A DNA stretch of 64,000 bases from Mobula hypostoma (GCF_963921235.1 NC_086107.1:98210001-98274000); one strand, 5' to 3'. Counted from the stretch's first letter, positions 23,571 through 48,092 are shown. The notes: generated by a model not told the origin, from the sequence alone. Numbers and translations are program-made.

Positions 23571-25430
23571 AAAATGATACTGGAAATGTGAAGAAGCAGC
23601 ATGAGTTGTTAATAGATTGAGTGAATGGACAAAGAAGGAGGAACTGAAAGCAGGAAACGGAGAAGTAACTGAGGAAAATGCAGTGGGATTCATTTTCACC
23701 TAGGGCATAAAACAACCCTAACATGGACGGTCCCAACTCTAGCTGCAAAAGGAGGAGGGGTGGGCATATGGAGCACCTCAACCTGTACAGAAATGCCAGC
23801 AGAATCTCTGGAAACCTCATCTGTAGGAGAGGAAGGATCTCCGAAGTTGGGCTACACCTGGGGCAGCTTGAAAGATTGGCTTTGGGCAGATTACTCTGGC
23901 GAGCTGCTGTCCAGTAGGGGTGATGGGCTTGAGTAAATAAGTAAGGCATCACACGTGGGCGGCAGGAGATAAAGAATTAAAATAGTGCAGGAATAGAAAA
24001 AGAGGAAGGGCAGAGAGGTGTGGATATTTAGTCACTGGAACAGATCAGAATCACTGATTTTACAGTATGTTGTGAAATTTGTTATTTTGTGGCAGCAGTA
24101 CAGAGCAAACTGTAAAAACTATAAATTACAATAATAAATACATATTTTAAACAATTAATTAAATAAATACAGCAAAAATAGTGAGGTAGTGTTCATGAGA
24201 TGGCACGTTCGGAAATCTGATGGCAGAGGGGAAGAAGCTGTTCCTAAAACATTGAGTGTGTGTCTTCAGGCTCCTGTACCTCCTCCATGATGGCAGTAGT
24301 TAGAAGAGAGCATGTCCTGGGTGACGGGGGCCTTAATGACAGATGCCAGCTTTTTCAGGCATCACCTTTTGAAAACGTCCTCAATGTTGGGGTGTAAACC
24401 CTTTCGCCTTGTGGGTCCATTCTACCATCCCATATGCCTAACCCCCTCCCAACACCTGCTGTTGACAGGAAATCTGCTGATCCTGAGTTTAAAATTCATT
24501 AAGTGTCAAAGAAATACAAGGCAGATGGAATTTAACCCTGATGTGTGAGGTAATACATTTTGGGATAGGACATTCACAATGAATTGTATGTTCCAGTGTG
24601 TATAGGGAGACAGAGGGGCCATCGTGTACACCTACAGGTTCCTAGAGCTGGGGGCACAGGTAGGTAAGGTGGCGAAAGAGGCAAGAAAAGGGAGGATGCT
24701 TGCCTTCATTGGATATGAAATACAAGAAGTCACAATACAACTCTGTAAGCCCACGGCTGGAGCCAATTTGGTCACTACACTATAGGAGGGACATGAATAC
24801 ATTGAGAGGGTGCAGAGGAGATCTACCAGGATGTTACTTGGGATGAAAAGTGTCAGTTACGAGGAGAGACTGGATAGGCTGGCTTTGTTTTCCTTTAGGC
24901 TGAGAGGGGCATAGAGAAGATGGACAGTGAGAAACTTTCTCCCATAACATTGAAAACCAGAAGGCATAGGATTAAGGCAAGGAGTAAGAGGGGATCTGAC
25001 AGGGGGAAAAATCGGTTAGGACGATGAGATCAGCTTCTGGCAAATGGGGTTAGTATGGATGGGCTGAAGGACCTGTTTTTGAATAAGATGGGAGAATTAG
25101 AATCAGAGAGTTACACCTCAGGACAAGTGAGAAGCTGGTTGAATCTGAGGGAGGGTGAGAGGGGCGACAGTCAGTGGAGAGGCACAGAAGGCCCAGGCGA
25201 ATTCACTGGACCGGCGCCACGGGGTACCAAGTGTGAGGACAGAGGTGACCAGTTCAAGAATGCTGAGAGTAAAGAGCTCAGAGAGGAAGAGAATGTGCGC
25301 ACGCCGCGGCGTCCCGGACTGTCAGACTCTATTCACCGCTCCTCCCAGACCTGTCGCGCCCGAGTCCCCTCCAGGCACGCTTTCTCTCGGCTTCACGGCC
25401 CCACCTTCCCCGTCAGATTAGCCGCGGCGT

Positions 25431-25492
25431 GGGGAATCCCCGTGGCACATGCGCATTCCTCTGGCACACCTTCAGCAAGCCCTAGATATAAG
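25431..25492 (+). promoter_or_regulatory. Proximal promoter of the PDGF-B-like gene: kappaB-consensus GGGGAATCCC (25431-25440) and TATA-like TATAAG (25487-25492) in a CpG-rich segment
   Basis: Motifs read directly. CpG-rich region ~25290-26200, ~490 nt upstream of the exon 1 ATG. TSS inferred at ~25515-25520, not observed. Confidence 0.6.
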
Positions 25493-25981
25493 CGAGCCGG
25501 AGGAAGCGGGAGCTGAGGCTAACGCTGCTGGTAGAGAGAGATAGAGGAGCACACAGGCGCAGTCACTGTCAGAGAGACACAGACACAGAGAGAGGGGAAA
25601 ACGGACAGAGAGGGACAGGCACAGAGGTACAGTCGCAGAAAGAGAAATACAGAGAAAAGAGAGTCACAGAGAGGTAAAAAAGGTGGGAGAGAGAGAAACA
25701 CACACACAGAGTGTAGCAGAGATACATTGAGGTACAGTGTGCAGCGCACACATAGAAACACAGACGCATACACACACGGAGGCATACAGAGTACAGCACA
25801 GACGCAGCGGGTCTGGTACACGCAGTTACACGCAGTGACACCCAGGCACGGAACGGACAGTCGGGACCAGTGTCCGGAGCAAGAGCGCGCTCCGTGGATA
25901 TAACGTGCAGAGGGAGCCGGCGGCAGCCCGGGGCGATGAGCCGGTCAGGCGCTGCGCTGTGAGCGGGACCGAGGGCTGACC

Positions 25982-26035
25982 ATGAATTTGGGCATCGCAC
26001 TGCTCACCTTGTGGCACCTGTGGCTGGAGACCGAG
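25982..26035 (+). CDS. PDGFB: PDGF-B-like exon 1 coding part (signal peptide MNLGIALLTLWHLWLETE)
   Basis: ATG in good Kozak context (gaccATG), hydrophobic stretch, ends GAG|GTGAG in phase 0, like human PDGFB exon 1 (...VSAE|). Confidence 0.85.
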
Positions 26036-26692
26036 GTGAGAGCAGGAGGTGGAGAGGAGTGGGGCGATGGGGAGGGGAGCTGGGGTCGAGGTCAGGATGC
26101 AAGTGCGTGCGGGTGGGGTGAGTCAGGCGCCGGGTGGTCCATGTTTGACCCGGGCTGGACCGCGAGGAGTTCGGTCATCGGGGATATGTCATTTACCCCT
26201 AGTAGAAGGCCATTCGGCCCGGTGAGACTATACTAGGTCTCTGAACAAACCCATTCCCAGTAATTCTCCCTGTATTCGATTCAATTCATATTGCTACCGC
26301 CTCACCCCAACACCCTACAGCGGCCAAGTAATCGGGGGGGGGGGGTGCTGGAGCGTGGAAGGAAACGATATCATAACTTTGTGGGTCACCCGCAGCCCCA
26401 GGATGATCTCCACCACCACCTTGACGGTAGCTGTCTAGGGACAATTAAATATTTGCTCGGTCTGTGAAGCCCACGTCCTTTGAATGAATTATAAGGGAGA
26501 GCTTGCAAACTCCACACGGACGGTACCAGAAGCTGGGGTCGACCTGGCGTTGCCGGCTATTCCAGTGGCCCGTGGGGGGTGGGGGGGTTGATGATTGGAC
26601 TCCTTTCACCGCTCGTGGTGGGGGGTGGTGAGAGCCGGGAGTGGGTACTTTGGGACCTTGCCTCACCACGCGTGTTTCCTCGCCTCCCGCAG

Positions 26693-26750
26693 GGTGACTG
26701 GATCCCTCCTGAACACGGACACCGGAGCTTCCTCTTCCATCCGACACTGG
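26693..26750 (+). CDS. PDGFB: PDGF-B-like exon 2 (propeptide GDWIPPEHGHRSFLFHPTL+G)
   Basis: Pyrimidine tract with cag acceptor and G|GTAAGT donor. 58 nt, phase 0 to 1. GDWIPPE resembles PDGFB GDPIPEE, and RSF is retained. Confidence 0.8.
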
Positions 26751-27939
26751 GTAAGTGATTCCAGCGGTGCCCTGCAGGGGCTGGGAGCGGGGCGCGGGCA
26801 CTGAGGAACGGGAGGAAGGTGGTGCTGCGGTGGAGGAGACTCCACAGCTGCCTGGCAGAATATATCCACGGGGCTGTGACAGCGGAGTGGAGTCGCTGGG
26901 CAAACAGCCAAGTTCTAGACTATAGCTCCAGGGGCAAGAGTTCAAATCTCACTGGTGACGACAGTAGCTGGGGACCTTCAATTTAAGTAATTAATTAAAA
27001 CTAGGAGTGGGGGGGGGGGAAGGCTAGCAGGAGTAAGTCCAAATCTATTGGAAGCACGAGACTGCAAATACTGCAATCTGGAGCATCTGAAGGGACTGGG
27101 TGGGTCGAGCAGCATCTGTGGGCAGAGGGGAATGGTCGCAATTTCATGTGGAAATCTTTCATCAGGCAGACTATAGTACAGTACTGGATTGTGTACACGA
27201 AAAAATCCACCTGATTCCTTTCGTCTTTCAACTTCCAGACCCGCAAACGTGGTTAAATGTAAAAAAAAACAAAGTGCTGGAGGAACTCAACAGGTCAATA
27301 GGTTTTTAGTGTTTGTTGCTCCAGACTTCCAGCATCTGCAGAACATCTTGTGTTTAATATTCCACAGGTCAGGCAGCAAAAAGCAGTCGATAGTTCAGGC
27401 GGGTGACCCTGAGCCCAAAACTCCTTCTACAGGTGCTGCTTGTCCTACCACGTGTCCGCAGCGTTCCCCTGATTTTGTTTCGGGTTTCTGACATCTGCGG
27501 GTTTTTAGCATTTTTTTTATATAAAGAAAGAAATCCAACTGAAGGGTCGTTTCTCCTCAGTTTGGCAGTAAGGGTCAGCGGTGCCAGAGGTCACCATGTC
27601 CTGTGAATTAATTAAAAGCAATATGGTGGGTCTGGATCACTTTAGAGCAGAGATGCAGTGCGTGAAGCATATTGGTGGACAATGGTAACCGAAGATTAGC
27701 ATTGAAACCTACAGTACAGTGCATTGTTCCCATCAAATCTACTCAGCAAGGACTGTTCAGAGTCGCCGTGCCTGCGACAGCCCTAACCATATGTCTTCGG
27801 AATGTGGGATGAACCCGGAGCACCCGGCGGAAACCCATGCTGTCGCGGGCAGACCGAAGCGGGATTGAACCCAGGTTGTTGGCACTGGTAGTGTTATGTG
27901 AACCACTCCACTGCATTGCTGTGCGGTCCTGGGGCATCA

Positions 27940-28352
27940 CTCATGTTGCCCGTTCCACCGCTGGCATTTAGGACGGCAATGAAGCTCCTCCGTCCCTGAT
28001 GGTGGTCAGGGCTTCCTTCATCGTGTCAGTAGCTCGGTTTTCACTGTCAGTCATGCAAGTCCCGGGTGGAGACCCAGGAATACTGTCCCACGCAGATATA
28101 GAAGGATTCTTCGTTTTTGTTTCCATAACAGTTTTTGTTTCACCAGTCAGGGTTGTTAGCCCTGAGCTGACCCCTGAACCTGGAGGATTAGTGGACCACT
28201 CTTAGTCTGGCCTCTACCCTTCAACCGCTTTGGGATGGGTGACCATACTAAGAGCCAAAGCACGAGGCCCTGACTCCAGCCAACATAACTCCCCAGGTCA
28301 TTGAGGTACATGAGCCTCCAAACCCTACTGCAAGGTTGTGGTCCTCTTGTGG
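27940..28352 (-). mobile_element. Bipartite RTE-derived non-autonomous element (5' UTR joined to 3' end) in intron 2
   Basis: Reverse complement matches 63035-63377. Its 5' part resembles BovB/fish RTE leaders (ggaccacaaccttg...gtggtcc). Confidence 0.7.
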
Positions 28353-31300
28353 ATCCTGTGGAATTAGGGTGATAATTTTGCTGGCTTAAGGTGTTCTGTA
28401 GGTAGGGTCAGAGGTGCGATCCCTCCTCTCTGCAGCCAGGGCCCACTGTCCCCTTCATACCCAACGGTAACCATGGAAGGAATAGCTGACAAGATCTGCA
28501 CTACTTGTTCAGGTCACGACTCTGCTGGGAAGGGGACACCATGCGCTCCCTGGGCTTTGTGAGTGGGAAGGTGGGGAAGGCAGGAGGTTTCAGAAGAGAT
28601 TCCTGTCGTGTAGAGTTGCAGTGAGAGTGGATAAAGGTGAGAGGAGATGTGCACGTGAAAGGGGTGAGAATAAGCTTGCCATTGCAGCTCCTGGCATGGC
28701 AGCTGGAATTGCAGAGTTTTTTGTGGTCTGTGTTTTGAGATCAAGAGGCGGCGCTGAGGTGTGTACACGGGTCAGGACCTCCTCTACTCCCCATGCTACG
28801 AGCGCTCCTGAATGCATTTTTTTTTTTGAGTTCCATAATGACATTTCAATTCTTGCCTGTTATGTCTGCCAGCTATTGCAACCTCAGTTCAGTTGCTATC
28901 TAAGAAAGCCCAGTGTTTCCTGGAATTGTCTAGAAGTCCAAACGACTTTGGCGAGGTTCCACTGCCTCCTTACAGTCTAACAGCGCGGCATCACGTGAGG
29001 CAGCCGGGCTGCCCATGTTTCTGGGTTTTGTCCCACCATTGTTAAATGCCAGTCTCTCTCTTGTTTTTCAAATACAATGAATCTGCTTCTAAATATAGGC
29101 GCACTGTTTTAACATTCCAACTGTCCTGACCAGGATGGAATTTGTCGAATAGTTTCCTGAGAGTTTGTGTTTGCGATTGTCTGAAACATTTCAAATGAAC
29201 AAAGTTTCTTTCTTTTGCCCGCGGGTCTGACCTTCACATTAACATTTCTACTTCGTAAATGTGACACGATTAACATTTCAGTCCGCTCGATCCTTTCTCC
29301 GTGCTCTTAACCCTTGTGAGGCCGGAGTGACACACCCATTCTATGTGGAGCTGGATCTATGATGCGTGTTTAATGGGAGGGGATCATGCTTTCACCTGGG
29401 GTTTCCCAACCCTTTTTATGCCATGGACCCCCTACCATTAACTGAGGGGTCTGAGGACCCCTTCACTTTAAACGAATCACAGTTCTGTCACTTTGTGCAC
29501 CAGCAGTTTTAAATAGTTCTCCATCAGGGGCTCTGTCCCTGATCCCTGTCAGGCCCCCACCTCTACTTGGCGCTTATTTAATATTTTAGAAATGCAGTGA
29601 CCTGTGCCTCCCACCCATTTAACACCAGCCTAATCACAGGCTAACTTGCACTGGCCAATCAACCTGGCACGTCTTCTAACTGTGTGTGCCTGCTGGAAGA
29701 AGGATCTCAGGGTTGTGTGTGGTGACATGTATGTACTCTGATAGTAAATTTTACTTTGAACTTTGAATTGTGGGAGGAAAGGGGAGTATCCGGAGGAAAC
29801 CCTAGTACGTTCTCCCGGTGAACTGCGAGCTCCTTGCGGACAGCATCGGAATCAAACTCTGAACTCCAGGACGCCGTGAGCTGTAATTATGTCACGCTAA
29901 CTGCCACTGTGGTGCCCAGTACTGTACCGTAGTACTGTCCTTAAACCTATCCGGACCAAAATTTTGTTCACCCGTCCTAATATTTCTCCCTCACCTCTTT
30001 GTTAAAAATACTCCTAAGACAGAACTTTGGACTCGGTTGTGTCAGAAGTTTTATAGGAACTGGGTCGATTATAGTGCCAGTGGATGACCGTTCCCCTCCC
30101 ATTGTCTCCTGATCCCCATCCTGCGCCTGTGTCACACTGACATTTCCAGAGTGCAATTCGCTCTGGTGTGGAATATTTGCTGGCTGGATCCACCCCCCCC
30201 TCCCCCCCCCCACAACCAACCTGTAATCCCCTCATCTGAGGCAGGCATCCCCTGGGATTTGGCCCCTAGGTTCCTGGTAAGAATTTATTTTGACCAACTT
30301 TGCAACTTCCTTTGTGAGCTGATGAGAGAGAAAATTGATGTTTGTTGAAACATCCTGATTACAGGCCAAGGGGACAGGTGTTTAAATTCAGAAAGAGTAA
30401 CAAGGTATTACCAGTGTCATACATTCCATGGACTGGGTGATCATTAGAGAGAATGTTTGTATAGGAGATATTGAAATTGAGCAGGAGGAGGAGGAGGAAT
30501 CTTCCCACATTCAGAGCTGTGAGACTGTGGTGTCTATCACCAGGTTCGTGACTGAAGCAAAGTTGCTGCCAAAATCAATGATTGGATTTGATTGTTGGAT
30601 CAGGGAAGGAGAATGGAATGGATAGAAAGGCAGAGCTTGTAAACGTTCCCTCAACTCGCTGTTTTTGAGGAACAGCAAAAAAAATCCTGCAGATGCCAGA
30701 ATACTGAAATAAAAGCAAAAAGAGCTGGAAATAATCAGTGGATTAGGCAGGTTTAGAGTTTCAGGTGGATGAGCTTTCAAGTCAACACAGTACTGATGAG
30801 AACTCACATTTTAACCTGTTACTCTGTCCGCAGATGCTGCCTGATCCCCTGAGAGTTTCCATTGAGCTCTGTTGCCCAAGGAAACAATTCTGCTCTGTTT
30901 TTTCCTATAACCGGCTCTCAGGATCTCTCCACCTGAAAGCTCGAACCTTGTCTTTTGATTGAAGACTTGCACTGAGACAGGTAGATTTTTGTTTGGTGGA
31001 TAGTACAGATCACGTCTGATGGGCTGAGTGGCCACAGCTGGGACAACACTACAACAGAGAGGCAACAGCAGCGTGAAGTTGGTGCATCCCTCTGCCTGAC
31101 GTGCCGGTGCCTGCCGCTGTCAGTGGTTCCCAGGTTAAATGAGGTATTGGATGACTCCTGGCGGACAACATTTTGGGAACCGGGCCACGTTGACAACCCC
31201 AGTCAGGTCCCTAATCCCATTCGGTATTCAGCTGCTGACCCAAGATGTGTGATCTCTCCAAAGCCATGTCATTATGGAGGTAAAATGAGTTATCCCTGGC

Positions 31301-32049
31301 ATTTCACACTTTTTATCCCTCTGGAGGAAGATGTGTATTAAATGATCTGGATTCAGTGGAAGGCTGTTACTGATAGTGACTTCAAGACACCAGCTGTGGT
31401 AACCAACTCCTGGGCCAGCACACTCTGGTAATTGGATCACGAAGAGGCTGGAATTAGCTCTGGAAGTCAGCTACGGAAACTTTTCTCACGGGCTTCGGAC
31501 ATTGCCTTCGTGAGCACCTCTCCACTTCTTAACCTGCAGCTGTTCCCTCAACCTTGTGGCATGAGCCCTGGAATTTTCAACTTTCAGATGCTCTTAAAGC
31601 TCTCACTTTCTTATCTCCATGCCAAAGCAAAGGGCAATGAGATATGAATGGGAGGTGGCCATTCAACCCCTCTGATCTATCACAGGAGGCGACCACTCAA
31701 CTCCTCTGATCTATTACAGAGCCCTCAACCCTTTGGAAATGGCCTGTGTGGCCGACCTTCATTACTTTCGTCAGCTTTCCTGCATTAACTCCCACAGGCA
31801 GTTAAGAAAATTAGAACTAGCAGGCAAAAAATGAGGTGCAGGAGGAACTCGGTGAGTCAGGCAGCTCCAGGGGAGGGAAATGGAGAGTTAACATCCGGAA
31901 TAAAATATAACACCATTCCGCTTTTCTAATTTGAAGGACGAGGTGAAAATAATTTGCGTTAGTCTACAACTGACCTGAAAAGTGAATAACTTTTTAATAT
32001 ATAATTTCTAGACTGGTGTGGATGGTAACCAGCTTGTGTTTGGTTTCAG

Positions 32050-32139
32050 ACACGGACATCAATAATTCTGACGACCTTGATTTGGTGTCTGTAAACGAAG
32101 GTGATCGTGCGAAAGTGGTGCGTGTGACCCGTAGTACAG
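32050..32139 (+). CDS. PDGFB: PDGF-B-like exon 3 (propeptide (D)TDINNSDDLDLVSVNEGDRAKVVRVTRST with RxxR convertase site)
   Basis: tttcag acceptor and AG|GTAAGG donor. 90 nt, phase 1 to 1. Contains an N-N-S sequon and RVTR/S at the position of PDGFB RGRR/S. Confidence 0.85.
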
Positions 32140-34782
32140 GTAAGGGGTGTTTCTGTAACAATTGCCTAGGGCCATATTTACTTATTTGGCAATTCAACAC
32201 GGTGTAGGCCATTCCATGCATTCCACAGGGAATTCGTCATGGAACAGTGCCGGAATTCAACTCTTAAACTCCGGAACGCCCTGATCTGTGATGGGGTCAC
32301 GCAAACCGCCAGGCCGCTGCGGTGCGTTTTGGCAAACGTTTCCAGTCTATCGTTACCTGGCCAGGGTGACCAGTGGCCCAAGCGGAGGCTGTGATGCTTG
32401 CCGCATGAGTAGTTCGTCAGGGTCCCAGGGGTGCTGGGGTACTAGTAGTCAGGGTCAGGCGGGAGTGCGGTCATCAGGAAGAAGGCATTTAAAGAGGAAA
32501 TTCCCATGATTGGGGCTTTGATACCTGGAAACATGGCCACCAGTTGGCTAGCATGTAGCAGTTAGTATGATGCTAACCCAGCGTAGGGTAGTCCAGAATT
32601 CAGTCCAGAGTTCAATCCCGGGGCGGTCCCATAAGGATCTTGTGCGTCCTTCCCGCTGGTTTTCCCCAAGTGCCCTGGTTTCCTTCCACAGTCCAAAGAT
32701 GTACGGGATAGATTAATTAGTCATTGCAAAAAAAGAAAAAGGGAACACCTCTTTTCCCCTTATTAGGGATTGAGAGAGCCTTTGTGGTATGTCAAATTAC
32801 CGGGTGAACGAGTAATCTTTGGACTGCTGCGAGTCTGTGTCTTTATTGATGGTTGAGTGCTTGGTGGAGGGTGCTGATGCTTTTTTGCTGGTGGGGGAGA
32901 GGGGGTGTTGCTTTACTGCTGCTTATGTGTGGGGGGGAGCTGGGGGGGACTTGGGGGTTTAACATTTAACTGTCATTCATTCTTTGGGGCACTCCTCTGT
33001 TTTTGTGGATATTTGTGAAGAAAAAGAATTTCAGGATGTATATTGTATACGTTTCTCTGGCATTAAATGTACCTATTGAAACCTATTAAATTGTCCTGTG
33101 ATTAGCTTAGGGGTGATCAGGGCTGTAAGGTTGCTGGGGCAGTGTGACTCAGAGGGGTGGAAGCACCTACTTCACGCTGCATCGCTAGATAGGTAGTAAG
33201 AGGTCGGGAGGAAAGCAACACGGAAATATTAGAGAGGGTCATAAGCAGGATGCGGTTAACACGCGAGGAGTGGGAGGAATCTGAGGGTTTGAAAGAATGG
33301 GAGTCTGCGGACAGAGGTGTAAGTAACTGGGGGTTGATTGATCCTAATCCATGCCAACTCATCTCCATCCACACCCACTTGGGTTTAGTGATTCACAGTG
33401 CTGACGTTTGTCGCATGTCCCTAATTTCCCCTGAATGAGGGGGAGGCGAAGTGTCAACCACATTATGGGCCTGGAGTTATCGACCAGCTCGCTATCTGAC
33501 AGACGTTAGTCATGAGCCACACTGGTTTTTCCAGCATCGATCTCTTGGGTTTCTGGTCACTGGTACCAAGTTAGTTTGCAGTTAGTCGACTCCAACCATC
33601 CCAAATTTAGCTGCAAAGGTGGGACTTCAACTTGTGCTCCGGACTGTTTCCATTGTGAGTCCATTAACAGTCCCTATGTCGTGTCCCCAGTCTCCAGTTA
33701 AAATATTCCTTTTCATAGACCGCTCCCCTCCTGTCCTCGCCCCTCCCCTGCAACCCCTCCCATAGACACCCCAAGCTCTGGTGTATCAGTGCCATCCCGG
33801 TGGTACCTGAAGCCAGGGGCTGCCACAACACCTTCATCCTCTCACCTTAATGACTGTAAGCTAGGGCTTCTCATCCTGTGGTCCATGGACCCCTTGCTTA
33901 ATGGCATTGGTCCATGGCATTAAAAATGTTGGGAGCTCCTGGTCTAAGCTGACAGGGTCAAATGTCCATGCCTGCCCTGACCTTCCCTCTTTTTGATTTC
34001 AGAATCAGGTTTATTATCATAAGGCATAGGAGCAGAATTAGACCACTCAGCCCATCGAGTCTGTTCCACCATTCAATCATGGTTGATTTATTTTCCATTT
34101 CGACCCCATTCTCCAGCTTTTAGCACCCTTGACAGTCAAGAACCTATCAACATCTGCTTTAAATATACCTAAAAAATTGGCCATAAATTCCACAGATTCA
34201 CCACCCTTTGGCTAAAGAAATTCCTCCTCGCTGTTCTAAAGGGACATCTTTCTATCATGGTCCTAGACTCTCCCACAATTGGAAATATCCTCTCCACATA
34301 CCCAGTCCTTTCAATATTCGACAGGCTTCAATGAGATCTCCCCTCATTCTTCTAAACTCCAGCGAGTACAGGCCCGGAGCCCTCGATCACTCCTATAGGT
34401 AGATATTAACGTATGTTAACCCTTTCATTCCCAAGGTCACAGTCATACATTGTGAAATTTGTTTTGTAGCGGCAGTACAATGCGAACCATAAAAATGACT
34501 ATAAACTGCCAGATTATTAGCGCAAGATACTGAGGTGATGTTCATGGACGGTTCAGAAAAATGATGATGAAGGGGGAAGAAGCTGTCCTTAAAATGTTCT
34601 TAAACCTCCATGTCTCTTCCTGATGAAGAGGAGATGTCCCAGGTGAAGGTGGTGTTGTCATGGTGCTCAGTGAGGCAGTGTGGGGGTGGGGGGTCAGCCT
34701 GCCTTGTCCAATTGAGGGAGGGGGAGAGTGCCTCAGGCCCAGCTGACTGGTGACCCTGTCCACCCATTCCTGTCTCCGCCAG

Positions 34783-34976
34783 AGGTGGAAATGGCCAAGC
34801 CAGCCGAGTGCAAGGTCCGGCCGGAGGTGGTGGAGATAACGCGGGGCATGGTGGACCCCACCAGGGCCAACTTCTACCTGTGGCCGAGCTGCGTGGAGGT
34901 CCAGCGCTGCTCGGGCTGCTGTAACTCCAGGATCTACAAGTGCCAGCCCACCCAGGTACAGAAGCGACGAGTGAAG
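34783..34976 (+). CDS. PDGFB: PDGF-B-like exon 4, PDGF/VEGF cystine-knot domain
   Basis: (E)[64 protein letters not shown] contains the P-[PS]-C-V-x3-R-C-x-G-C-C family signature. ccag acceptor, AAG|GTGAGG donor, 194 nt, phase 1 to 0. Confidence 0.95.
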
Positions 34977-35849
34977 GTGAGGATTGGCTGTGGGGGTGAG
35001 GGCTGGGCTCCATTGGTGGCGGGATGCTGGGGGGGCTGGGCGGCCAAAGATCTGTGCACCTGGGGTGTTACATCATGTGCTGGGATTTGTTGGTGCGCTG
35101 GGGCTTTGTGGAGGATTCTGGACGTCGAGGGCTTGGCTGGGAGGAGGGTAGTGTGGTAGAGATTCAGTGGTGGCAATAATAATTATTATCACCGACCTAC
35201 AAATGTCATTTATTGTTTTGTGCTAGTGGTACAACACAAGATATAAAATTATGTGAAGATGCAATACAAGTAAACAGTGAAGAAGAGGAATAGTGAGAAA
35301 GTATTCATGGTTACAGGGACCATTAAGAAATCTGATAGTGGAGGAGAGGCTTTTCCTAAATCACTTCGTGTGTGGCATTGGGCTCAAATGTGCTGATGAC
35401 ACAAAAATAGGTGAAAGAGCAAGCAACATTGGGGACGTTCACATTCTGCAACCGGATATTGATCAGTAGTTTGAGTGGGTGAGAAGTTTAAATTAGGAAA
35501 CGGAGGTCATATGCTTCAGTACCAGGAACCTCGGCACAGACGTCAAAATGGAAAGAGATGTTAGATTAACAAAGTACAAAGATCCGTATCTTACTGCGAG
35601 AAGTTTGAAATTGGGGAGTATTGTTACAAGAGTACATTTGTTGATAGAATGGTCACAGCCAAAGTATTGTTCATGGTTCTGGTCATCTTATTTAAGAGGC
35701 AGACCAAAAGAGATTCACTTGGCTAATTCCTGATCTATCAGGAGTGATAAGAAGAAATTAGAAACCTATTCTTTAGCATTTACGAAAATAAGAGGTGTTC
35801 TTACTGAAAAATGAAATCTTAAGGGAGCACAACATTAGTGGGAGGATCA

Positions 35850-36430
35850 CAAGTGAAAAAATCTGCTGATGATTGAAGTCCAAAGCAACATACACACAAA
35901 GACACACTCAAAATGCTGGAGGAACTCAGCAGGCCAGGCTATGGAAAAGAGTAAACAGTCCATGTTTTGGGCAAAGACCCTTCATCAGGACTGGAAAGGA
36001 AGGGGAGAAGTCAGAATAAGAAGGCGGGGGGAGGGGAGAAAGAAGTACAAGGTGACAGGTGAGACCGGAAGAGGGGAAAGTGAAGAGCTGGGAAGTTGAT
36101 TGGTGAAAGAGATAAAGGGCTGGAGAAGGGGGAATCTGATGGGAGAGGACAGAAGGCCATGGCAGAAAGGGAAGGGGGAGGAGCAGCAGGAGGAGATTGG
36201 GCAGGTAAGGAGGTTAGTTGTGAGAAGGGACGGAGGCATTTGCTGGAAGTTTGAGAAGTCAATGTTCATGCCATCAGGTTGGAGGGTACCCAGATGGAAT
36301 ATAAGGTGTTGCTCCTCCAACCTGAGTGTGGCCTCATTGCGACAGTAGAGGAGGCCATGGACTGACATATCGGAATGGGAAGTAGAGTTAAATTGGGGTG
36401 GCCACCAGGAGATCCCGCTTTTTCTGGATC
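35850..36430 (-). mobile_element. Older Penelope-like 3' fragment in intron 4
   Basis: ORF HFNSTSHS-like FNSTSHSDMSVHGLLYC..RLEEQHLIFHLGTLQPDGMN and a mutated hammerhead at 35957-35992. Confidence 0.85.
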
Positions 36431-36649
36431 TCATGGGACAAGGTAAGGGGATAGGGACAGTCTTAAACTGTTGTGCAGGGATTTCTTCTCGGATTGGCGG
36501 TGAACCTCTGGAAGGTCCTATCTCTAAGATTTGCAGAAGTGAGATCGTCACCACCTCAAAAGGGAAGTGGATTGTTGTTTTATGGAAGATCAAATACTTA
36601 AGGGCTTTGAGGAAACGTCCCAGAAGTGGAGATGGAGTCTAGGACAGAT

Positions 36650-37190
36650 TATTCAAAATCAGATTTAATATCACCGGCATATGTTGTGAAATTTGCAACT
36701 TTATGGCAGAAGAACAATGAACTACATGATAAATAAATATAGAGAAAAACCTGAATTACATTACGTGTGTGTATATGTATGTATACTTTTTTAATAGCTA
36801 AGTTAAAATAAGTAATGCAAAAAAAAAAATTTTTTTTTAAAATAGTGAGGTAATGTCTATGGGTCCATTCAGAAATCAGATGACAGAGGGGAAGAAGCTG
36901 TTCCTGAATCGCTGAGTGTGAGCCTTCAGGCCCCTGTACCTCCTTCCTGATGGTAACAATAAAAAGAGACCATGTCCTGGGTGGTGGTGGACCCTAATAA
37001 TGGACACCACCTTTCTCAGGTACCATTTCTTGGCAGTGTCTAGGATACTACAGAGGCCAGTATCCATGATGGAGCTGAATAATTTTACAAGATTCTGCAA
37101 CTTATTTCAATCTTGTGCTGTAGCCCCCCCCCCCACCCCCATACCAGATGGTGATGCAGCCTGTCACAATGCTCTCCATGGTACATATGA
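36650..37190 (-). mobile_element. Rex1/Babar-like LINE 3' fragment (others at ~24050-24390, 39715-40200 and 62370-62800)
   Basis: HHPGHGLFLLLPSGRRYRGLKAHTQRFRNSFFPSVI. Confidence 0.85.
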
Positions 37191-37671
37191 TCCTATTGAA
37201 TGGTGGGATAGGTTTGAAGGGCTGAATGGCCGACTGCTGCTCCAAGTCCTTGTGTGCGCTGACAGTTGGGGAGCTGTGACCCAGACAAGTGCCTCTGTGG
37301 CTCCCTCACCTCTTGGCCCTCCCCGATCAGCTATCTAAAAATAGCCCGAGCTAAATGTGCACGTGGGTCAGAGGTCAGTCCTACTGGCCCAGGAAATTCC
37401 CAGCATTTTTCCACAATTAATCAACGAGGGTTGGCGGGGAGGGCTGAGACTGGGGGCTGGCACTGTGAGTGAGTGAGTGTCGTTTATCGAGCTGTGCTGA
37501 ATGGGTTGGGCTCAGTCTACATTCATGGCAAAGGTGTGCCTTGCTCCTAAAGTTTTTGGACAAAGGTCCTCAGGATGAAATTTCTTGTAGACTTTCAGCC
37601 ATGGATGGGCAAGCTTGCTGTGTGCTCAGACTGGGCGACAACCCTGCTTGAATTGTCCTTGCATCCCTCAG

Positions 37672-37795
37672 GTCAGGAAGCAGGTGTACCGGCGGAAGAG
37701 CAGCGTGATCAAGATGGTGGAGGTGGTGTTACTCGATCACGTGGCGTGCAAGTGCATGACTGCAGCTCAGTCTGCAGACTCTCAGGGGAGAGAAG
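37672..37795 (+). CDS. PDGFB: PDGF-B-like exon 5 (VRKQVYRRKSSVIKMVEVVLLDHVACKCMTAAQSADSQGRE+G)
   Basis: DHVACKC matches PDGFB DHLACKC. ctcag acceptor, AG|GTGAG donor, 124 nt, phase 0 to 1. Confidence 0.93.
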
Positions 37796-38284
37796 GTGAG
37801 CATCCAACAATCTCAACTTACACCCAGTCTCTGCAACCGAGGATCTGTAGTTAGAGGGTTCAGTAGGGGGATAGATGATGGGTCCTTGAGTTATGTTTGG
37901 TTCACCAACGGACATCTGCCAAGAGTCTGTGTTTTCCAGCTTAGACGACCGCATCCTGTTTTATCTCTGGGCAATAGGTGTCAGAGGTGGGTTGGAATTA
38001 CTTGAGTGTTTGGGAGGATCACAAGTTGACCTGTGTTTGGCTGGTGGGTGCCTGGCGTTGGCCAGTGGTCATCTCGTGTTGAGCTTTGGTTTGGTCCATG
38101 GGTGGTTGGGGCTTGGTCTGTGGGCATCTAGGGTTTGGCTAGTCAGTATCTGGGTTGCAGTTGCTCTAGCCACGAAGCCAGGAGTCTTCCCTCTTCCTAG
38201 TAAATGTAGGTTCGGTGAGTTGGACCAGTTGCTCAGAGGGGGCTTTTGCAGATTTGGAGTCTGACGCACATCTCTTCCCGTCAG

Positions 38285-38400
38285 GGTCCTTGGTCTCTCA
38301 AGCGCCCACCGTAGTCCGGGCCCGCAAGTACCTCAGCAAAAAGCGGAAACATCGGACATCCAAACACATTGCTGGGGAGGAAGGATTCCACCAAACATAG
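38285..38400 (+). CDS. PDGFB: PDGF-B-like exon 6 coding part: basic C-terminal retention motif and stop
   Basis: (G)SLVSQAPTVVRARKYLSKKRKHRTSKHIAGEEGFHQT* aligns with PDGFB VRVRRPPKGKHRKFKH. Candidate donor CAG|GTGGGG after 38417. Total CDS is 636 nt = 211 aa + stop. Confidence 0.85.
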
Positions 38401-38589
38401 CAAGCCTCGAGATTCAGGTGGGGAGCTCTGAGCACCACACTCTCCCTCTCTGGACAAGGGGGATGGTGAGTGAATGGGGCTTGGGGACGGAATGCCCAAA
38501 GGTCTGAATTGTGCCACGTGAAAGCAGCTTCCATCATCAAAGACCCCCAGCATCCAGACCTGCCCCTTTTCTCACTACTACCATCACTG

Positions 38590-38920
38590 GGTGGAGAAAC
38601 GTCTCTACCAAAGGAGGTTTAAGGTGCTCCTTCCCTCTGCTAGCCTGCAGGTCACCCTTGGGCAAGGTGTAACAGCTGCCTAACCCCCCCCCCCGCCATC
38701 CTGATCGGGGTCACGTGGAGCAGGAGGTGGATGGTCGTATGAGCAGCTGGTGCATATTACAAGTCCTAGTTGTGCGACCACTGACAGCAAGCAGACCATT
38801 TCTGAAGAGTATTGATACTGGCTGGCATCACTGCTCAGAAGAAAGCAATGGCAAAAAAACTTCTATGGAAAAATTTGCTGAGAAAGACCATGATCACCCA
38901 TGTCTTATGATATGGTACAT
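38590..38920 (+). mobile_element. SINE-like element with an RTE-type 3' part (copies at ~50335-50530 and 55355-55730, both minus strand)
   Basis: Three similar copies. Contains a gcaatggcaaa(cc)acttc motif like Bov-A/RTE partners, with an (ATG)n tail in the other two copies. Confidence 0.65.
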
Positions 38921-40372
38921 AACAAACAAAAAACCACTACTACTGGCGGCCTAGGTCCTAAACCACCAGGTTCAGGAACAGTTATTACCCTTCAACTGTC
39001 AGGTTGCTGAACTAGTATGGTTAACCACTAAGAACTGCTTCAATGAACTACAGATTCACTTTTAAGAACTTTTTATGTCTCATGTTCTGTGTATGATTTT
39101 TGATTACATAGTTTTGTCTTTTCTATATTGTGTTTACTAGTCTTTGTATCTTGTTTTTATAAAATTCTATTGTATTTCCTTGTTCCCTGTAATTACTGCA
39201 ATGAAACAAATCTCAGTAGCATTTTGTAATGGGTACTTGGATAGTAAACTTACTTTGAAGTTTTGAACAGTGGGAGGGAGGAAAGTCAGTCATACAGCAT
39301 GAAAGCAAGCCCCTCGGCCCATCTTGTCTATGCTGACCAGGATTCCCTTCCAAGCGAATCCCATTTGCCCATATTTGGCCCATGTCCCTCTAAACCAAAT
39401 GTCCCAATTTCGGTCTGTGGACCCCTTGGTAGGGGATCCTTGACATAAAGGTTGAGAACCCCAGCTCTGAGCCTTTCCTATCCATGTCAAGAGCCTTTTA
39501 AATGTTGTTAATGTACCTACCTTAACCCACTTCCACCGGCAGCTTCTTTCATACACTGTCCACACTTTACGTGACAACATTACCCAGGCTCTTGTTAACT
39601 TTCTCCCTCTCATCTTAAATCTATCCTCTCTAGTTCTAGATTCCCTAACCCTGGGGATAAAGACTGTGTTCATTAACTCTCTCTGTACCCTTTATGATTT
39701 TGTACATCTCATTCTCAAAGTTCAAAGTAAATTTATTATCAAAGTGCATGTATGACGTCATATACAACCCTGAGATTCAACTTTGTGCACGCACACTCCA
39801 TAAAGAAAAAAATAATAAATAAGCAGTAAATATTGAGAATATGGGATGAAGAGTTCTTGAAAGTGAGCCTGTAAATTGTGGGAACAATTCAGAGATGGGG
39901 CAGGTGAAACTGAGTGAAGTTATGAAGTTATCAAGAGCCTGATGATTGAGGGGTAATCATCTGAACCTGGTGGTGTGGGTCCTGGGGCTCCCGTAACACC
40001 TTCTTGGTGGCACCAGCGAGAAGAGAGCACGTCCTGGGCGGCGGGGTCCCTTGTGATGGGTGGCGCTTTTTTCTGTGACAGCACCCCATGTAAGTGTGCT
40101 CGATGGCGGGGAGAGCTCTACCCGTGATGCCCTGAACAGCATCCACGGCCTTCTGTAGGATTTTCCGTTCAAACCGATGGAAGAAGCTCCAACCCGCGCA
40201 AGCTCTCTGTGTCTCACTCCGGGCTAGTGGATCTCCCGTACACTCTTTCCATCTCAGAGCGTGGACTGGGGCTGGGGCAGGCGGGAGAGAGTGTGGAGGG
40301 TTCGGCAAGCAGCTTGAGCGGAGTTTCAGTGGTAAGGCACTCATTCTTCCCGGTTTCTTTCTCTCTCTGTAG

Positions 40373-41385
40373 ATATCTTCTCCGACGATGTGATGCTGCA
40401 TTTCCAAGGCAGACCTGCTTTACGCAGCCAACGGGAAATAATACGACGCCCTCTGGGAACAACGTGCTTTTTGTGTAAAGGGACGAATCCAACACCACTG
40501 TGCACTAAAGACCAAAATATTGACTTTCAGCAAATGTTTTCTAAGTAACGACCACTGGATTTTATTGAGCAAAGACTGGAGCCAAACGGCATTGTGTTGT
40601 CCGTAGGGCTGAGGCAAGCTGGCTTCTGCTGGAGACCGTTTTCAGACTTAGCTCTTTGCACTGTATATTGTGCTTTTCTGTGTTAATGTTTGACATTTAA
40701 TATTCGTTTCTGTGGGCTGACTGAAGAGAACAGGAGGCCCGTCCTCCTGCTACTGGCTGGCTTTGCCAGTTCGTGTGGTATTTCGAGAGGTGCTCTGGCA
40801 GATCCTTTCCGGCAGATTCCAGACCGGTCAGGAGCCCCTCTCCAAAGGCAACCGCACAGATCCCAGGTTCCCTCGGGATTGGAGCCTCCTCTCCCCCCGG
40901 ACAGAGATGGAGCCCAGCTCCCTGCTCCCCCTATCCCTGACTGGGAATGTGTCGGCTCGGTTCTGTGACTCTCTGCCCCGACTCCTGGGCTTATGATGTG
41001 TCAGCGTTAAACGGGTCGGGGACGGAGCCAGAGAGAGTGAGCCCGAGGCGGGGGTGGGGGGGGGGTGGTTGCTGCCACGTTCTCCATCCGACTGCCGCCG
41101 CCTCCTCCTGCTTGTTTACGCACTTCAGGGACCGGAGACCCGCCGGTGCTACAGCCGGTGCAGGAGGCAACACTGGGGCAGACCGCGGAGATCGATCGCT
41201 GTTCAATTGAGATCGCAGGTGGTGCCTGGATCAAGGTCAATGATGCAGAGAGGATTGCTAGGTTACTGCTGTAAATATTGAATCTCAACTGTTTTTAAAG
41301 TTAAACATAGACTAATTATTTATATATTTAAAGTTGTAAAAGTTTCTATGAAGTATAATAAACGGCTGTTTGTGGTAATGGCTGA
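40373..41385 (+). other. PDGFB: Probable non-coding last exon (exon 7, 3' UTR) of the PDGF-B-like gene
   Basis: Strong pyrimidine tract plus tag acceptor at 40371-40372, then ~1 kb with no recognisable repeats. ATTTA at 41318 and 41326, AATAAA at 41357-41362, followed by GT-rich sequence. Mammalian PDGFB also has a non-coding exon 7. Confidence 0.6.
41357..41362 (+). terminator. Polyadenylation signal AATAAA
   Basis: Canonical hexamer with an AU-rich upstream region and a downstream tgtttgtggt element. Confidence 0.6.
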
Positions 41386-42233
41386 TCCTGTGAAACCAGG
41401 TGTGGGTGAGTCACGCATTCCAGCCACAGGGACTCGCGAATGTGCATGGGGATATTTGGACGCTGATTCACGTTGCTAATTGTCTTAATTTGCTGCTGAT
41501 AACCAGAGGCTTGTGTGCCGATAAGGAGGACTTTCCCCTCTCTGATGCAATGTCTGTTGTCCCCTTCCCTGCACAACACAATCGCCAGATGGTGCGGGTC
41601 TGACATTTGCCTCGCTGACTGCCAGGTGCGATTGTGCGCAGGTAGCAACAGGCTGCCGGGTGACCGCCCGCACTTCACTCAGGCAGTTTGGGTGGGACAA
41701 ACAGCGAGCCGTGGCCGTGGCTCTGACACACACTGCGGAAGAATCTGGGTTCTGTACCGAACCGGGACTGACCACGCACCCCCCCCCCCCGGGTTTGTTC
41801 AGCGGGGCGAAACGACGGAATCTGCTCGCCGTTCTTCAGAGTCGAAGCCTGCTGATAGCAGGGAAAGAGGACGCTGAACGGGAAAGCTTGAGTAACATGC
41901 GCAATGAAGGGTCTCGGCCTGAAATGACTCTTTATTTTCCTCCATAGGTGCTGCCTGACTTGCTGAGTTCCTGGGGCACTCAGCAATATCAGCACTATAT
42001 CAGTACTGTATGTGTAATCAAGCTATTCCCAGTTAACCTTATCTCTACCTGGGCTGAGTCTGTAATCTGATTAGAATTGGTTTGTTATTGTCATATACAG
42101 TGTTGTTTCTAGGGAGAAGATTTTACTCATGTGCATCCAGACAGGTTATTCCATACATAATCATGCTTGCGTTTCTTATCGTGGGGGAGCCTAGGACCAG
42201 AGGGCGCAACCTCAGAACAAAAAGATGTCCATC

Positions 42234-47700: not shown

Positions 47701-48092
47701 GGACTCCTAAGTCTCTTTGCACCTCAGAGCTAGAAAATAGGCTACCCTTTATTTCTTCCACCAAAGTGCATGACCATACACTTCCCAACACTGTTCTATC
47801 TGCCAATTCTTTACCCATTTTCCTAATCTAAGTCCTTCTGTAGCCTCTCTACTTTCTCAAAACAACCTGTCCCTTCACCTATCTTCATATCATCTGCAAA
47901 CTTGGCCACAAAGCCATCAATTCCATCATCCAAATCATTGACATATAAGGTAAAAAGAATTGGCCCCAACACTGACCTCTGTGGAACACCACTAGTTACT
48001 GGCAACCAACCAGAAAATGTTCCTTTTATGCAACACACATCAAAGTTGCTGGTGAACGCAGCAGGCCAGGCAGCATCTCTAGGAAGAGGTGC

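What the first reader, a model, noticed from the sequence alone, without database searches (positions are those of the whole stretch)
25982..38400. Complete but divergent PDGF-A/B-type gene with mosaic A and B features: possible third PDGF-A/B paralog
Seen: six exons with canonical GT-AG sites and phases 0,1,1,0,1 splice to an intact 211-aa ORF with 8 cystine-knot cysteines. Known: this is the PDGFA/PDGFB exon layout. B-like traits are GDx[23 protein letters not shown], DHxACKC and a long basic exon 6. A-like traits are VDPTxANF, KCQP, exon 4 ending in VK, and a short spacer after the convertase site. WPSCV replaces the WPPCV of human PDGF-A and -B, and the receptor-contact loops differ (ITRGMVD vs ISRRLID; QVYRRKSSVI vs IEIVRKKPIF). 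Inference: either a fast-evolving PDGFB ortholog or a retained ohnolog lost in mammals, possibly with different PDGFR preference.
Basis: partly seen in the sequence, partly recalled or inferred. Interest (0 to 1): 0.72.

Follow-up and report, generated by a model that had tools for sequence, protein, structure and literature searches.

The report
Ray PDGFB gene, not a third paralog
This is the cartilaginous-fish version of the ordinary growth-factor gene PDGFB, already present in public annotation, while a real extra PDGF gene missing from mammals sits on another chromosome of the same genome.

Summary
Six GT-AG coding exons (phases 0,1,1,0,1) splice to a 211-aa protein with eight cystine-knot cysteines. 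That protein is letter-for-letter identical to a RefSeq model named 'PDGF subunit B-like' from a devil ray. Spliced contigs from public runs confirm all five coding junctions and add a seventh, non-coding exon.

The 'third paralog' reading does not hold for this locus. The genome has three PDGF-A/B-type loci. The window gene lies between a SUN gene and the genome's only MGAT3-type and ADSL-type matches, as human PDGFB does at 22q13.1 (human map recalled). Its exon-6 tail carries the PDGFB-type KRKHRKFK motif. ML trees group it with bony-vertebrate PDGFB (99/99 and 97/95), although AU tests do not reject the alternatives. Its domain divergence from mammalian PDGFB (57.7%) is normal for PDGFB (gar 59.8%, coelacanth 61.9%).

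Real lineage-specific oddities are a propeptide with no PDGF_N signature and a basic loop 3 in which the receptor-contact Ile75 is K/R/Q/S in 14 of 14 cartilaginous-fish sequences.

The genuine extra gene is on contig C68, between FAM20 and PRKAR1-type genes (human 17q24.2-like). It was found in all cartilaginous-fish groups and in no bony vertebrate.

The parts
25507..26035 (+). Exon 1: 5' UTR of at least 475 nt, then the start codon at 25982 and the signal-peptide coding part 25982-26035 (18 codons, phase out 0).
   Evidence: ATG and GT donor read directly. Spliced contigs begin at 25507, 25523 and 25599 and join 26035 to 26693.
26693..26750 (+). Exon 2 (58 nt, phase out 1). It encodes GDWIPPEHGHRSFLFHPTL, a short and diverged start of the propeptide.
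   Evidence: The joint 26750|32050 is seen in X1, X2 and X3. No PF04692 match.
32050..32139 (+). Exon 3 (90 nt, phase out 1). It encodes the rest of the propeptide and ends in RVTR|S, a minimal R-x-x-R convertase site.
   Evidence: The joint 32139|34783 is seen in X1, X2 and X3. Cleavage is inferred, not tested.
34783..34976 (+). Exon 4 (194 nt, phase out 0). It encodes the first six knot cysteines and loops 1 and 2. An alternative donor at 34955 gives the 204-aa isoform X4.
   Evidence: The joint 34976|37672 is seen in X1, X2 and X3.
37672..37795 (+). Exon 5 (124 nt, phase out 1). It encodes the basic loop 3 (VRKQVYRRKSSVIK) and the last two knot cysteines (CKC).
   Evidence: The joint 37795|38285 is seen in X1, X2, X3 and X4.
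38285..38417 (+). Exon 6. It encodes the basic C-terminal tail (ARKYLSKKRKHRTSKH) with the stop codon at 38398-38400, followed by 17 nt of 3' UTR before a GT donor.
   Evidence: The joint 38417|40373 is seen in X1, X2, X3 and X4.
40373..41392 (+). Exon 7. It is non-coding in the 211-aa form. If exon 6 is skipped it is read to a TAA ending at 40548, giving the 231-aa isoform X1 (P0002) that lacks the basic tail. An AATAAA or ATTAAA signal (the scan did not say which) lies at 41357.
   Evidence: Contigs cover 40371-41081 and 40371-41392. Exons 1-5 plus exon 7 translate exactly to P0002. The 5|7 joint itself was not among the joints shown.

Best explanation
The locus is the cartilaginous-fish ortholog of PDGFB. 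It is a seven-exon gene with six coding exons.

Inferred from family knowledge, not tested here: the product enters the secretory pathway through an 18-residue signal-type N-terminus, is cut by a furin-type convertase after RVTR, and forms a disulfide-linked cystine-knot dimer that signals through PDGF receptors. The exon-6 basic tail would hold the factor on heparan sulfate near the producing cell, and an exon-6-skipped isoform would be freely diffusible.

Compared with bony-vertebrate PDGFB, the lineage has a shortened propeptide that no longer matches the PDGF_N family. It also has a more basic loop 3, in which two hydrophobic receptor contacts (Ile75, Phe84) are replaced.

Shown here: gene structure, splicing, family membership, genomic neighbourhood, conservation across cartilaginous fishes. 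Inferred: secretion, cleavage, dimerisation, receptor use, matrix retention.
For: 1. Synteny on contig C45.
- A SUN-type gene lies at 98.066-98.077 Mb.
- The window gene lies at 98.236-98.251 Mb.
- A FAM20-type gene lies at 98.365-98.379 Mb.
- The genome's only Glyco_transf_17 (MGAT3-type) match lies at 98.686 Mb (1 match, 4 candidates scored).
- The genome's only ADSL_C match lies at 98.913 Mb (1 match, 3 candidates scored).
- An RPL3-type gene lies at 106.86 Mb.
- In human, SUN2, PDGFB, RPL3, MGAT3 and ADSL all lie in 22q13.1 (recalled).

2. The other two A/B-type loci have their own paralogous neighbourhoods.
- C36: SUN, then RIIa (PRKAR1-type), then PDGFA, then FAM20. This is human 7p22-like.
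- C68: FAM20, then PDGF, then RIIa, then Peptidase_M54. This is human 17q24.2-like.

3. The exon-6 tail motif [KR][KRG]K[HNY][RQ][KT][FS]K was counted.
- 12 of 15 window-type proteins have it.
- 5 of 11 sarcopterygian PDGFB have it, and 2 more (P0197, P0042) have near-variants; the remaining four rows have truncated or different tails.
- 0 of 29 PDGFA and 0 of 13 third-type proteins have it.

4. ML trees.
- 86 rows x 97 columns: the split {PDGFA + third} | {bony PDGFB + window-type} has support 99/99*.
- 49 rows x 227 columns: the same split has 97/95*. Inside the window-type clade the chimaera is basal and rays and sharks are each monophyletic, as expected for orthologs.

5. Best solved-structure matches are human PDGF-B (117.7 bits) ahead of PDGF-A (106.1 bits).

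6. Domain identity to mammalian PDGFB is 57.7%, against 59.8% for gar PDGFB and 61.9% for coelacanth PDGFB.

7. The stop codon lies in exon 6 and exon 7 is non-coding. This is the human PDGFB layout (recalled).

8. Orthologs with intact ORFs come from at least 14 cartilaginous-fish species.
Against: - AU tests do not reject trees that hold window-type with PDGFA (p 0.207, p 0.216) or with the third type (p 0.282). The sequence tree alone is therefore not decisive.
- PF04692 (PDGF_N) is found in 0 of 4 window-type proteins at E<=0.01, against 4 of 4 bony PDGFB.
- Only 1 of the 6 hydrophobic PDGFR-beta contact residues of human PDGF-B is identical in the window protein. Trp40 is kept; Leu38 is Y, Ile75 is Q, Ile77 is Y, Pro82 is S and Phe84 is I (contact list from passages of PMC4909612, which cites Shim 2010).
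- Domain identity to tetrapod PDGFA (52.6%) is only 5 points below that to mammalian PDGFB.
- Of 6 columns that separate A from B, the window protein has the B state in 3, the A state in 1 and another state in 2.
- A FAM20 gene lies next to the locus, and human 22q13 has none (recalled). RPL3 is 8.6 Mb away rather than adjacent.
- Human map positions come from recall, not from a tool.
Confidence: 0.87

Rival explanations
1. Hidden paralogy. The window gene is a fourth 2R ohnolog, the sister of PDGFB. Cartilaginous fishes would have lost true PDGFB and bony vertebrates would have lost this gene.
For: - In both trees the window clade is a separate long-stemmed clade on the B side (stem 0.62, 0.42), and its position relative to bony PDGFB groups is unresolved.
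- The propeptide and loop 3 are unlike any bony PDGFB.
- An adjacent FAM20 gene has no counterpart at human 22q13 (human map recalled).
Against: - It would require the single-copy MGAT3-type and ADSL-type genes and the SUN gene to have undergone the same reciprocal loss.
- The exon-6 motif is shared in detail with amphibian, mammalian, coelacanth and sturgeon PDGFB.
- No fourth A/B-type locus or remnant was found: 3 matches of 11 candidates scored, and 10 PF00341 loci of 46 candidates.
Confidence: 0.07
2. The gene is a PDGFA-derived or chimeric gene, a true A/B mosaic made for example by gene conversion or exon exchange between paralogs.
For: - Reader-listed A-like traits were counted. KCQ[PA] is in 12 of 14 window-type, 16 of 28 PDGFA and 0 of 40 bony PDGFB. 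An exon-4 end in VK is in 4 of 14 window-type and 28 of 28 PDGFA.
- The AU test does not reject window-type plus PDGFA.
Against: - The A-like states are scattered single residues and not a contiguous block.
- VDPT also occurs in 4 of 11 sarcopterygian PDGFB.
- QRCSGCC and AECK are B-type, and the exon-6 tail is B-type.
- The split with the B side has 99/99 and 97/95 support.
- A separate, highly conserved PDGFA exists on C36. In a related elasmobranch PDGFA (P0094), domain identity to tetrapod PDGFA is 81.4%.
Confidence: 0.03
3. The gene is non-functional or decaying, with an open reading frame by chance.
For: The propeptide has lost its family signature. Several receptor-contact residues are replaced.
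Against: - The ORF is intact with canonical splice sites.
- All 8 Cys are kept in 14 of 14 window-type sequences across chimaera, sharks and rays.
- The rest of the domain is strongly conserved: 70% identity between ray and catshark.
- Fully spliced contigs were found in three runs of one study and partly in a run of a second study.
Confidence: 0.02

Closest known systems
PDGF-B (PDGFB) of bony vertebrates; human structures 1PDG and 3MJG
   Same: - The PDGF/VEGF cystine-knot domain has all 8 Cys and aligns without gaps.
- [12 protein letters not shown] and PTQVQ are shared.
- A convertase site lies before the mature domain.
- The exon-6 basic tail carries the KRKHRKFK-type motif.
- The stop codon is in exon 6 and exon 7 is non-coding (human layout recalled).
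- The neighbourhood is SUN, MGAT3, ADSL.
   Different: - Exon 2 is only 58 nt and the propeptide gives no PF04692 match.
- Loop 3 is more basic, and Ile75 is K/R/Q/S in 14 of 14 cartilaginous-fish sequences against I or V in 40 of 40 bony PDGFB.
- Phe84 is T/S/I/N/P.
- WPSCV replaces WPPCV.
- A RefSeq isoform skips exon 6.
- A FAM20 gene lies next door.
PDGF-A (PDGFA)
   Same: Same fold and exon phases. VDPT, KCQP and an exon-4 end in VK are shared. Optional use of the basic exon 6, as in PDGFA long and short forms (PDGFA splicing recalled), resembles isoform X1 here.
   Different: - A separate, highly conserved PDGFA gene lies on C36 with PDGFA-type neighbours.
- RCTGCC is in 27 of 28 PDGFA and 0 of 14 window-type.
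- The PDGFA tail motif (GKKRKRKRLKPT type) is absent here.
- The trees put PDGFA on the other side of a 99/99 split.
Third PDGF-A/B-type gene of cartilaginous fishes (RefSeq 'PDGF subunit A-like'; P0031, P0098, P0210, P0222)
   Same: Same family and the same WPSCV...QRCSGCCN core. It is also restricted, as far as these searches show, to cartilaginous fishes in its present form.
   Different: - It lies on a different chromosome (C68) between FAM20 and PRKAR1-type genes.
- Domain identity to the window protein is only 42.3%.
- It falls on the A side of the trees on a very long stem: 2.26 and 1.7.
- Its tail is short and non-basic (...PRFPSKYYKQSTDN).

Membership tests
PDGF/VEGF cystine-knot growth factors (Pfam PF00341) | PDGF/VEGF homology domain with eight characteristically spaced cysteines | tested here: met
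   PF00341 matches at E 2e-21 over residues 77-160 and profile positions 1-82 of 82. All 8 Cys align with mammalian PDGF-B Cys16, 43, 49, 52, 53, 60, 97 and 99, in 14 of 14 window-type sequences.
PDGF-A/B subfamily | Six coding exons with phases 0,1,1,0,1, and a convertase site between the propeptide and the mature domain | tested here: met
   Exon model and phases. Junctions seen in spliced contigs. RVTR|S lies at the end of exon 3. The human exon layout is recalled. Cleavage was not tested.
PDGF-A/B subfamily | N-terminal propeptide homology (Pfam PF04692, PDGF_N). This is typical of the subfamily but is an accessory feature, not one that defines orthology. | tested here: not met
   0 of 4 window-type proteins (P0001, P0002, P0014, P0190) match at E<=0.01. 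4 of 4 bony PDGFB and the hagfish PDGFA match.
PDGFB orthology group | Position in the conserved PDGFB chromosomal neighbourhood | tested here: met
   On C45 the order is SUN 98.07 Mb, gene 98.24 Mb, FAM20 98.37 Mb, the only MGAT3-type match 98.69 Mb, the only ADSL_C match 98.91 Mb, and an RPL3-type gene at 106.86 Mb. The human 22q13.1 map is recalled.
PDGFB orthology group | Groups with PDGFB of other vertebrates in a phylogeny | tested here: met
   The split {A + third} | {B + window-type} has 99/99* support with 86 rows and 97/95* with 49 rows of full-length sequence.
PDGFB orthology group | Alternative placements rejected by a topology test | tested here: inconclusive
   AU p values are 0.207 and 0.216 for window-type plus A, and 0.282 for window-type plus third. 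The alignments are short (97 and 227 columns).
PDGFB orthology group | Exon-6 basic retention tail of PDGFB type (K-R/G-K-H-R-K-F-K-H) | tested here: met
   The motif is in 12 of 15 window-type proteins. The window protein itself has the variant KRKHRTSK. It is in 5 of 11 sarcopterygian PDGFB with close variants in 2 more, and in 0 of 29 PDGFA and 0 of 13 third-type.
PDGFB (function) | Hydrophobic PDGFR-beta contact residues Leu38, Trp40, Ile75, Ile77, Pro82 and Phe84 | tested here: not met
   The window protein has Y, W, Q, Y, S and I at these positions, so only Trp40 is identical. Position 75 is K/R/Q/S in 14 of 14 window-type. The contact list comes from passages of PMC4909612, which cites Shim et al. 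2010.
PDGFB (function) | Binds and activates PDGFR-beta and PDGFR-alpha as a disulfide-linked dimer | not testable with these tools

The most novel reading that the evidence does not exclude
Cartilaginous fishes keep three 2R-derived PDGF-A/B genes, each still paired tail-to-tail with a FAM20 gene. In that three-ligand setting their PDGFB ortholog, the window gene, has changed how it works. It lost the conserved propeptide module, and its receptor-binding loop 3 became basic, with Ile75 replaced by K/R/Q/S in every species sampled. It may therefore bind PDGF receptors with a different preference or mode from bony-vertebrate PDGF-B, while part of the ancestral role is carried by the third ligand that bony vertebrates lost.
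Probability: 0.25. Interest if true: 0.55.

Novelty: already known. Interest (0 to 1): 0.25.

Why it matters
For this locus, little changes. It is the expected PDGFB gene of a ray, already in RefSeq under an automatic 'B-like' name, and the 'mosaic' look comes from comparing it only with human sequences.

The useful outcome is a firm orthology call from synteny, tail motif and tree. That call prevents the gene from being counted as a new paralog.

Two by-products may matter more.
- The clade-wide remodelling of the propeptide and loop 3 gives a testable case of ligand-receptor co-evolution in the PDGF system.
- The real extra ligand on C68 sits in the FAM20-PRKAR1 interval, which holds no PDGF gene in human (recalled). 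[quoted passage not shown]

Tried and rejected
1. First guess for exon 3. An ORF at 33435-33506 reading MRGRRSVNH looked like a convertase-site exon. Its phase does not fit, and an enumeration of AG..GT intervals with R-x-[KR]-R gave only two implausible candidates. The true exon 3 was found from P0001.

2. RNA evidence. No RNA holder was listed in the run search. The runs are of unrecorded kind, guessed to be RNA. I rely only on the intron-skipping GT..AG joints in their contigs. The exon 5|7 joint of isoform X1 was not among the 15 joints shown; 152 more were not shown.

3. AU topology tests were inconclusive.

4. Pfam scan of all 261 stop-to-stop ORFs of at least 70 aa in the flanks (1-25513 and 38673-63998). 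It found no cellular gene, only transposon-type hits. Exons shorter than 70 aa would be missed.

5. Earlier findings of this scan: nothing near the place.

6. Literature. Six searches found no paper that describes cartilaginous-fish PDGFB or a third PDGF-A/B ohnolog. Only PMC10328876 touches on it, and I read passages, not its supplements, whose Fig. S2 may list these genes.

7. The protein atlas look-up of the third-type protein gave only generic PDGFA, VEGF and other family clusters.

8. No structure or complex prediction was run. Homology to solved PDGF-B is already clear and no binding claim rests on a prediction.
Full report
OBSERVATION

The window is G000:C45:98210001-98274000. Reading the sequence and joining exons in a script gives six coding exons: 25982-26035, 26693-26750, 32050-32139, 34783-34976, 37672-37795 and 38285-38400. 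Every exon has an AG acceptor and a GT donor, and the phases out are 0,1,1,0,1. The CDS is 636 nt and encodes 211 aa with eight Cys.

The translation is identical to P0001, a RefSeq protein named 'platelet-derived growth factor subunit B-like isoform X3 [Mobula hypostoma]'.

My own first guess for exon 3, an RGRRS ORF at 33435, failed on phase. The true exon 3 ends in RVTR|S.

TRANSCRIPT EVIDENCE

Contigs of three runs from one study (X1, X2, X3; kind not on record, guessed RNA) carry all five coding junctions as GT..AG joints. They also carry a sixth joint, 38417|40373, which leads to a further exon covered to 41015-41100 by those spliced contigs and to 41392 by the X4 contig. A run of a second study and a second, closely related organism (X4) shows the 5|6 and 6|7 joints.

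The stop codon lies in exon 6 and exon 7 is untranslated. That is the layout of human PDGFB (recalled). Contigs start at 25507-25599, so the 5' UTR is at least 475 nt.

Two further RefSeq isoforms are explained by the DNA.
- P0002 (231 aa) is exons 1-5 joined to exon 7. It lacks the basic tail.
- P0004 (204 aa) uses an alternative donor at 34955.

HOW MANY PDGF-A/B GENES THE GENOME HAS

A six-frame search of the 3.48-Gb assembly with exon 4 gave three loci out of 11 candidates scored. PF00341 gave ten loci out of 46 candidates: five with the strongest PF00341 scores (which I read as VEGF-type, not classified here), the same three A/B-type loci, and two weak ones.
- C36:144.31 Mb is a plain PDGFA. 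Its exon 4 reads [28 protein letters not shown]....
- C68:39.23 Mb is a divergent gene, [42 protein letters not shown].... It matches the RefSeq 'PDGF subunit A-like' proteins P0031-P0034 and P0210.

SYNTENY

Family searches of the genome place the following.
- C45: SUN 98.066-98.077 Mb, the window gene 98.236-98.251 Mb (+), FAM20 98.365-98.379 Mb (-), the only MGAT3-type match 98.686 Mb, the only ADSL_C match 98.913 Mb, and an RPL3-type gene at 106.86 Mb.
- C36: SUN 143.65 Mb, RIIa (PRKAR1-type) 144.04 Mb, PDGFA 144.31 Mb (+), FAM20 144.83-144.85 Mb (-).
- C68: FAM20 39.183-39.206 Mb (+), PDGF 39.218-39.299 Mb (-), RIIa 39.394 Mb, and the only Peptidase_M54 match at 40.27 Mb.

From recalled human maps these correspond to 22q13.1 (SUN2, PDGFB, RPL3, MGAT3, ADSL), 7p22.3 (FAM20C, PDGFA, PRKAR1B, SUN1) and 17q24.2 (AMZ2, PRKAR1A, FAM20A, with no PDGF gene). 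Passages of PMC4043752 confirm that AMZ2 and PRKAR1A share a 3.9-Mb interval at 17q24.2.

In all three ray loci the PDGF gene and the FAM20 gene are tail to tail. That fits duplication of a block. The window gene therefore occupies the PDGFB position, and the C68 gene occupies a position that is empty in human.

SEQUENCE EVIDENCE

An exhaustive profile search found 836 proteins at E<=0.001, and the best 150 were listed. With the earlier hits I held 182 proteins. Of these, 142 covered the domain, and 131 were distinct and free of X.

I built a careful IQ-TREE on 86 of the 131 rows. The 45 rows left out were:
- P0004 and P0010 (window-type) and P0036 (a PDGFB row), all of which lack part of the domain;
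- 6 PDGFA rows;
- 36 further PDGFB rows, mostly teleost representatives, to fit the time limit.

The split {29 PDGFA + 3 third-type} | {40 bony PDGFB + 14 window-type} has 99/99* support. The window-type clade has 100/100*.

A second tree on 49 full-length proteins (227 columns) gives the same split at 97/95*. Inside the window clade the chimaera is basal and rays and sharks are each monophyletic. The B side is a polytomy of coelacanth, tetrapod, ray-finned and cartilaginous clades.

Against this, AU tests do not reject holding window-type with PDGFA (p 0.207, 0.216) or with the third type (p 0.282). The tree supports the B placement but does not prove it.

The exon-6 tail is more telling.
- The KRK[HY][RQ]KFK-type motif is in 12 of 15 window-type proteins; the regular expression also accepts the window protein's own variant KRKHRTSK.
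- It is in 5 of 11 sarcopterygian PDGFB, with near-variants in 2 more (P0197, P0042). Sturgeon has a close form, RRKHRKLKH.
- It is in 0 of 29 PDGFA and 0 of 13 third-type proteins.

PDB matches rank PDGF-B (117.7 bits) above PDGF-A (106.1 bits).

IS IT UNUSUALLY DIVERGENT OR MOSAIC?

Domain identities are as follows.

| Comparison | Identity |
|---|---|
| Window protein vs mammalian PDGFB | 57.7% |
| Gar PDGFB vs mammalian PDGFB | 59.8% |
| Coelacanth PDGFB vs mammalian PDGFB | 61.9% |
| Elasmobranch PDGFA vs tetrapod PDGFA | 81.4% |

PDGFB is simply the faster-evolving paralog everywhere.

- Shared ancestral states or states also seen in some bony PDGFB: VDPT is in 4 of 11 sarcopterygian PDGFB, and WPSCV is in frog PDGFB, in teleost pdgfba and in 3 of 3 third-type.
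- Genuinely shared with PDGFA: KCQ[PA] is in 12 of 14 window-type, 16 of 28 PDGFA and 0 of 40 bony PDGFB.

Only 6 columns cleanly separate A from B. The window protein has the B state in 3, the A state in 1 and another state in 2.

WHAT IS REALLY DIFFERENT

1. Propeptide. Exon 2 is 58 nt. No window-type protein (0 of 4) matches PF04692, while 4 of 4 bony PDGFB do. The IRSFDDLQRLL-type segment is missing from the alignment.

2. Loop 3. Passages of PMC4909612, citing Shim 2010, list six hydrophobic PDGF-B side chains at the PDGFR-beta interface. One search compares them.
- Trp40 is kept in 14 of 14 window-type sequences.
- Position 75 is K/R/Q/S in 14 of 14, against I or V in 40 of 40 bony PDGFB.
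- Position 84 is T/S/I/N/P, against mostly F or Y in bony PDGFB.
- Position 77 is mostly Y or F, as it is in ray-finned PDGFB and in PDGFA.

These are clade-wide changes and not a peculiarity of this ray.

MECHANISM

Shown here: a conserved, spliced, intact PDGF-family gene at the PDGFB locus.

Inferred from family knowledge:
- secretion;
- convertase cleavage after RVTR;
- a disulfide-linked dimer, since both interchain Cys are present;
- PDGF receptor activation;
- matrix retention through the exon-6 tail, with a diffusible form when exon 6 is skipped.

Whether the basic loop 3 changes receptor preference is open.

THE THIRD GENE

The C68-type protein was found in rays, skates, sawfish, sharks and chimaera. 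One search returned 26 hits of this type, from P0031 to P0223, before the first window-type hit. One search named P0098. No bony-vertebrate member appeared. One search finds only relatives that share short words, and one search lists only the best 150.

The third type sits on the A side of both trees on a very long stem: 2.26 and 1.7. It has a short, non-basic tail.

FLANKS OF THE WINDOW

Among 261 ORFs of at least 70 aa outside the gene, only transposon-type Pfam hits appear. An (AG)n-like tract lies at 23280-23568, inside a strongly purine-skewed stretch.

VERDICT

The locus is the PDGFB ortholog of cartilaginous fishes, is already annotated, and is not a third paralog. Interest is low for the locus itself. 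Interest is moderate for the clade-wide loop-3 and propeptide changes and for the separate C68 ohnolog.

Noticed in passing
Outside the window: G000:C68:39218218-39299269 (-); exon 4 in L002/L011: A genuine third PDGF-A/B-type gene (RefSeq 'PDGF subunit A-like', P0210). It lies between a FAM20 gene (39.183-39.206 Mb) and a PRKAR1-type RIIa exon (39.394 Mb), with the genome's only Peptidase_M54 match at 40.27 Mb. This is a human 17q24.2-like neighbourhood, which has no PDGF gene in human (recalled). Orthologs were found in rays, sharks and chimaera, and none in bony vertebrates.
   Followed up: partly
Outside the window: G000:C45:98364602-98379114 (-), about 116 kb downstream of the gene: A FAM20 gene lies tail-to-tail with the PDGFB ortholog. 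The genome has four FAM20 loci (C36, C45, C68, C50) against three in human (recalled). All three PDGF-A/B genes are paired with one, which suggests an ancestral FAM20-PDGF block copied in the vertebrate genome duplications.
   Followed up: partly
window 38417|40373 and 40373-40548: Exon 6 is spliced 17 nt after its stop codon to a seventh exon. RefSeq isoform X1 (P0002, 231 aa) skips exon 6 and reads 58 residues of exon 7 to a TAA ending at 40548, which removes the basic retention tail. The 5|7 joint was not among the joints displayed.
   Followed up: partly
window 34955/34956: An alternative GT donor inside exon 4 removes 21 nt (VQKRRVK) and gives RefSeq isoform X4 (P0004, 204 aa). This cuts into the knot domain, so it is probably a minor or non-productive form.
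   Followed up: partly
window 23280-23568, within 22000-26000: An (AG)n / AGACAGAG-type imperfect repeat. It lies in a strongly purine-skewed stretch (GC skew 0.39, AT skew 0.33 at 22-24 kb), about 2 kb upstream of the 5' ends of the transcript contigs.
   Followed up: no
window 14060-14992 (-), 17426-17944 (+), 47826-48263 (-), 48426-48860 (+), 57449-57730 (+), 3148-3906 (+): Transposon remnants are the only Pfam hits in the flanks. They are two reverse-transcriptase ORFs, two weak GIY-YIG ORFs (one of them just below the Pfam cut-off; the pairing could be Penelope-like, from recall), a weak sub-threshold Tc3-type transposase HTH, and a 253-aa ORF with an ALKBH8_N match of unclear origin.
   Followed up: no
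window 35646-37247 and 38316-39917 (introns 4 and 6): Contig word depths in the thousands to tens of thousands in all four laid runs mark high-copy repeats inside the introns.
   Followed up: no
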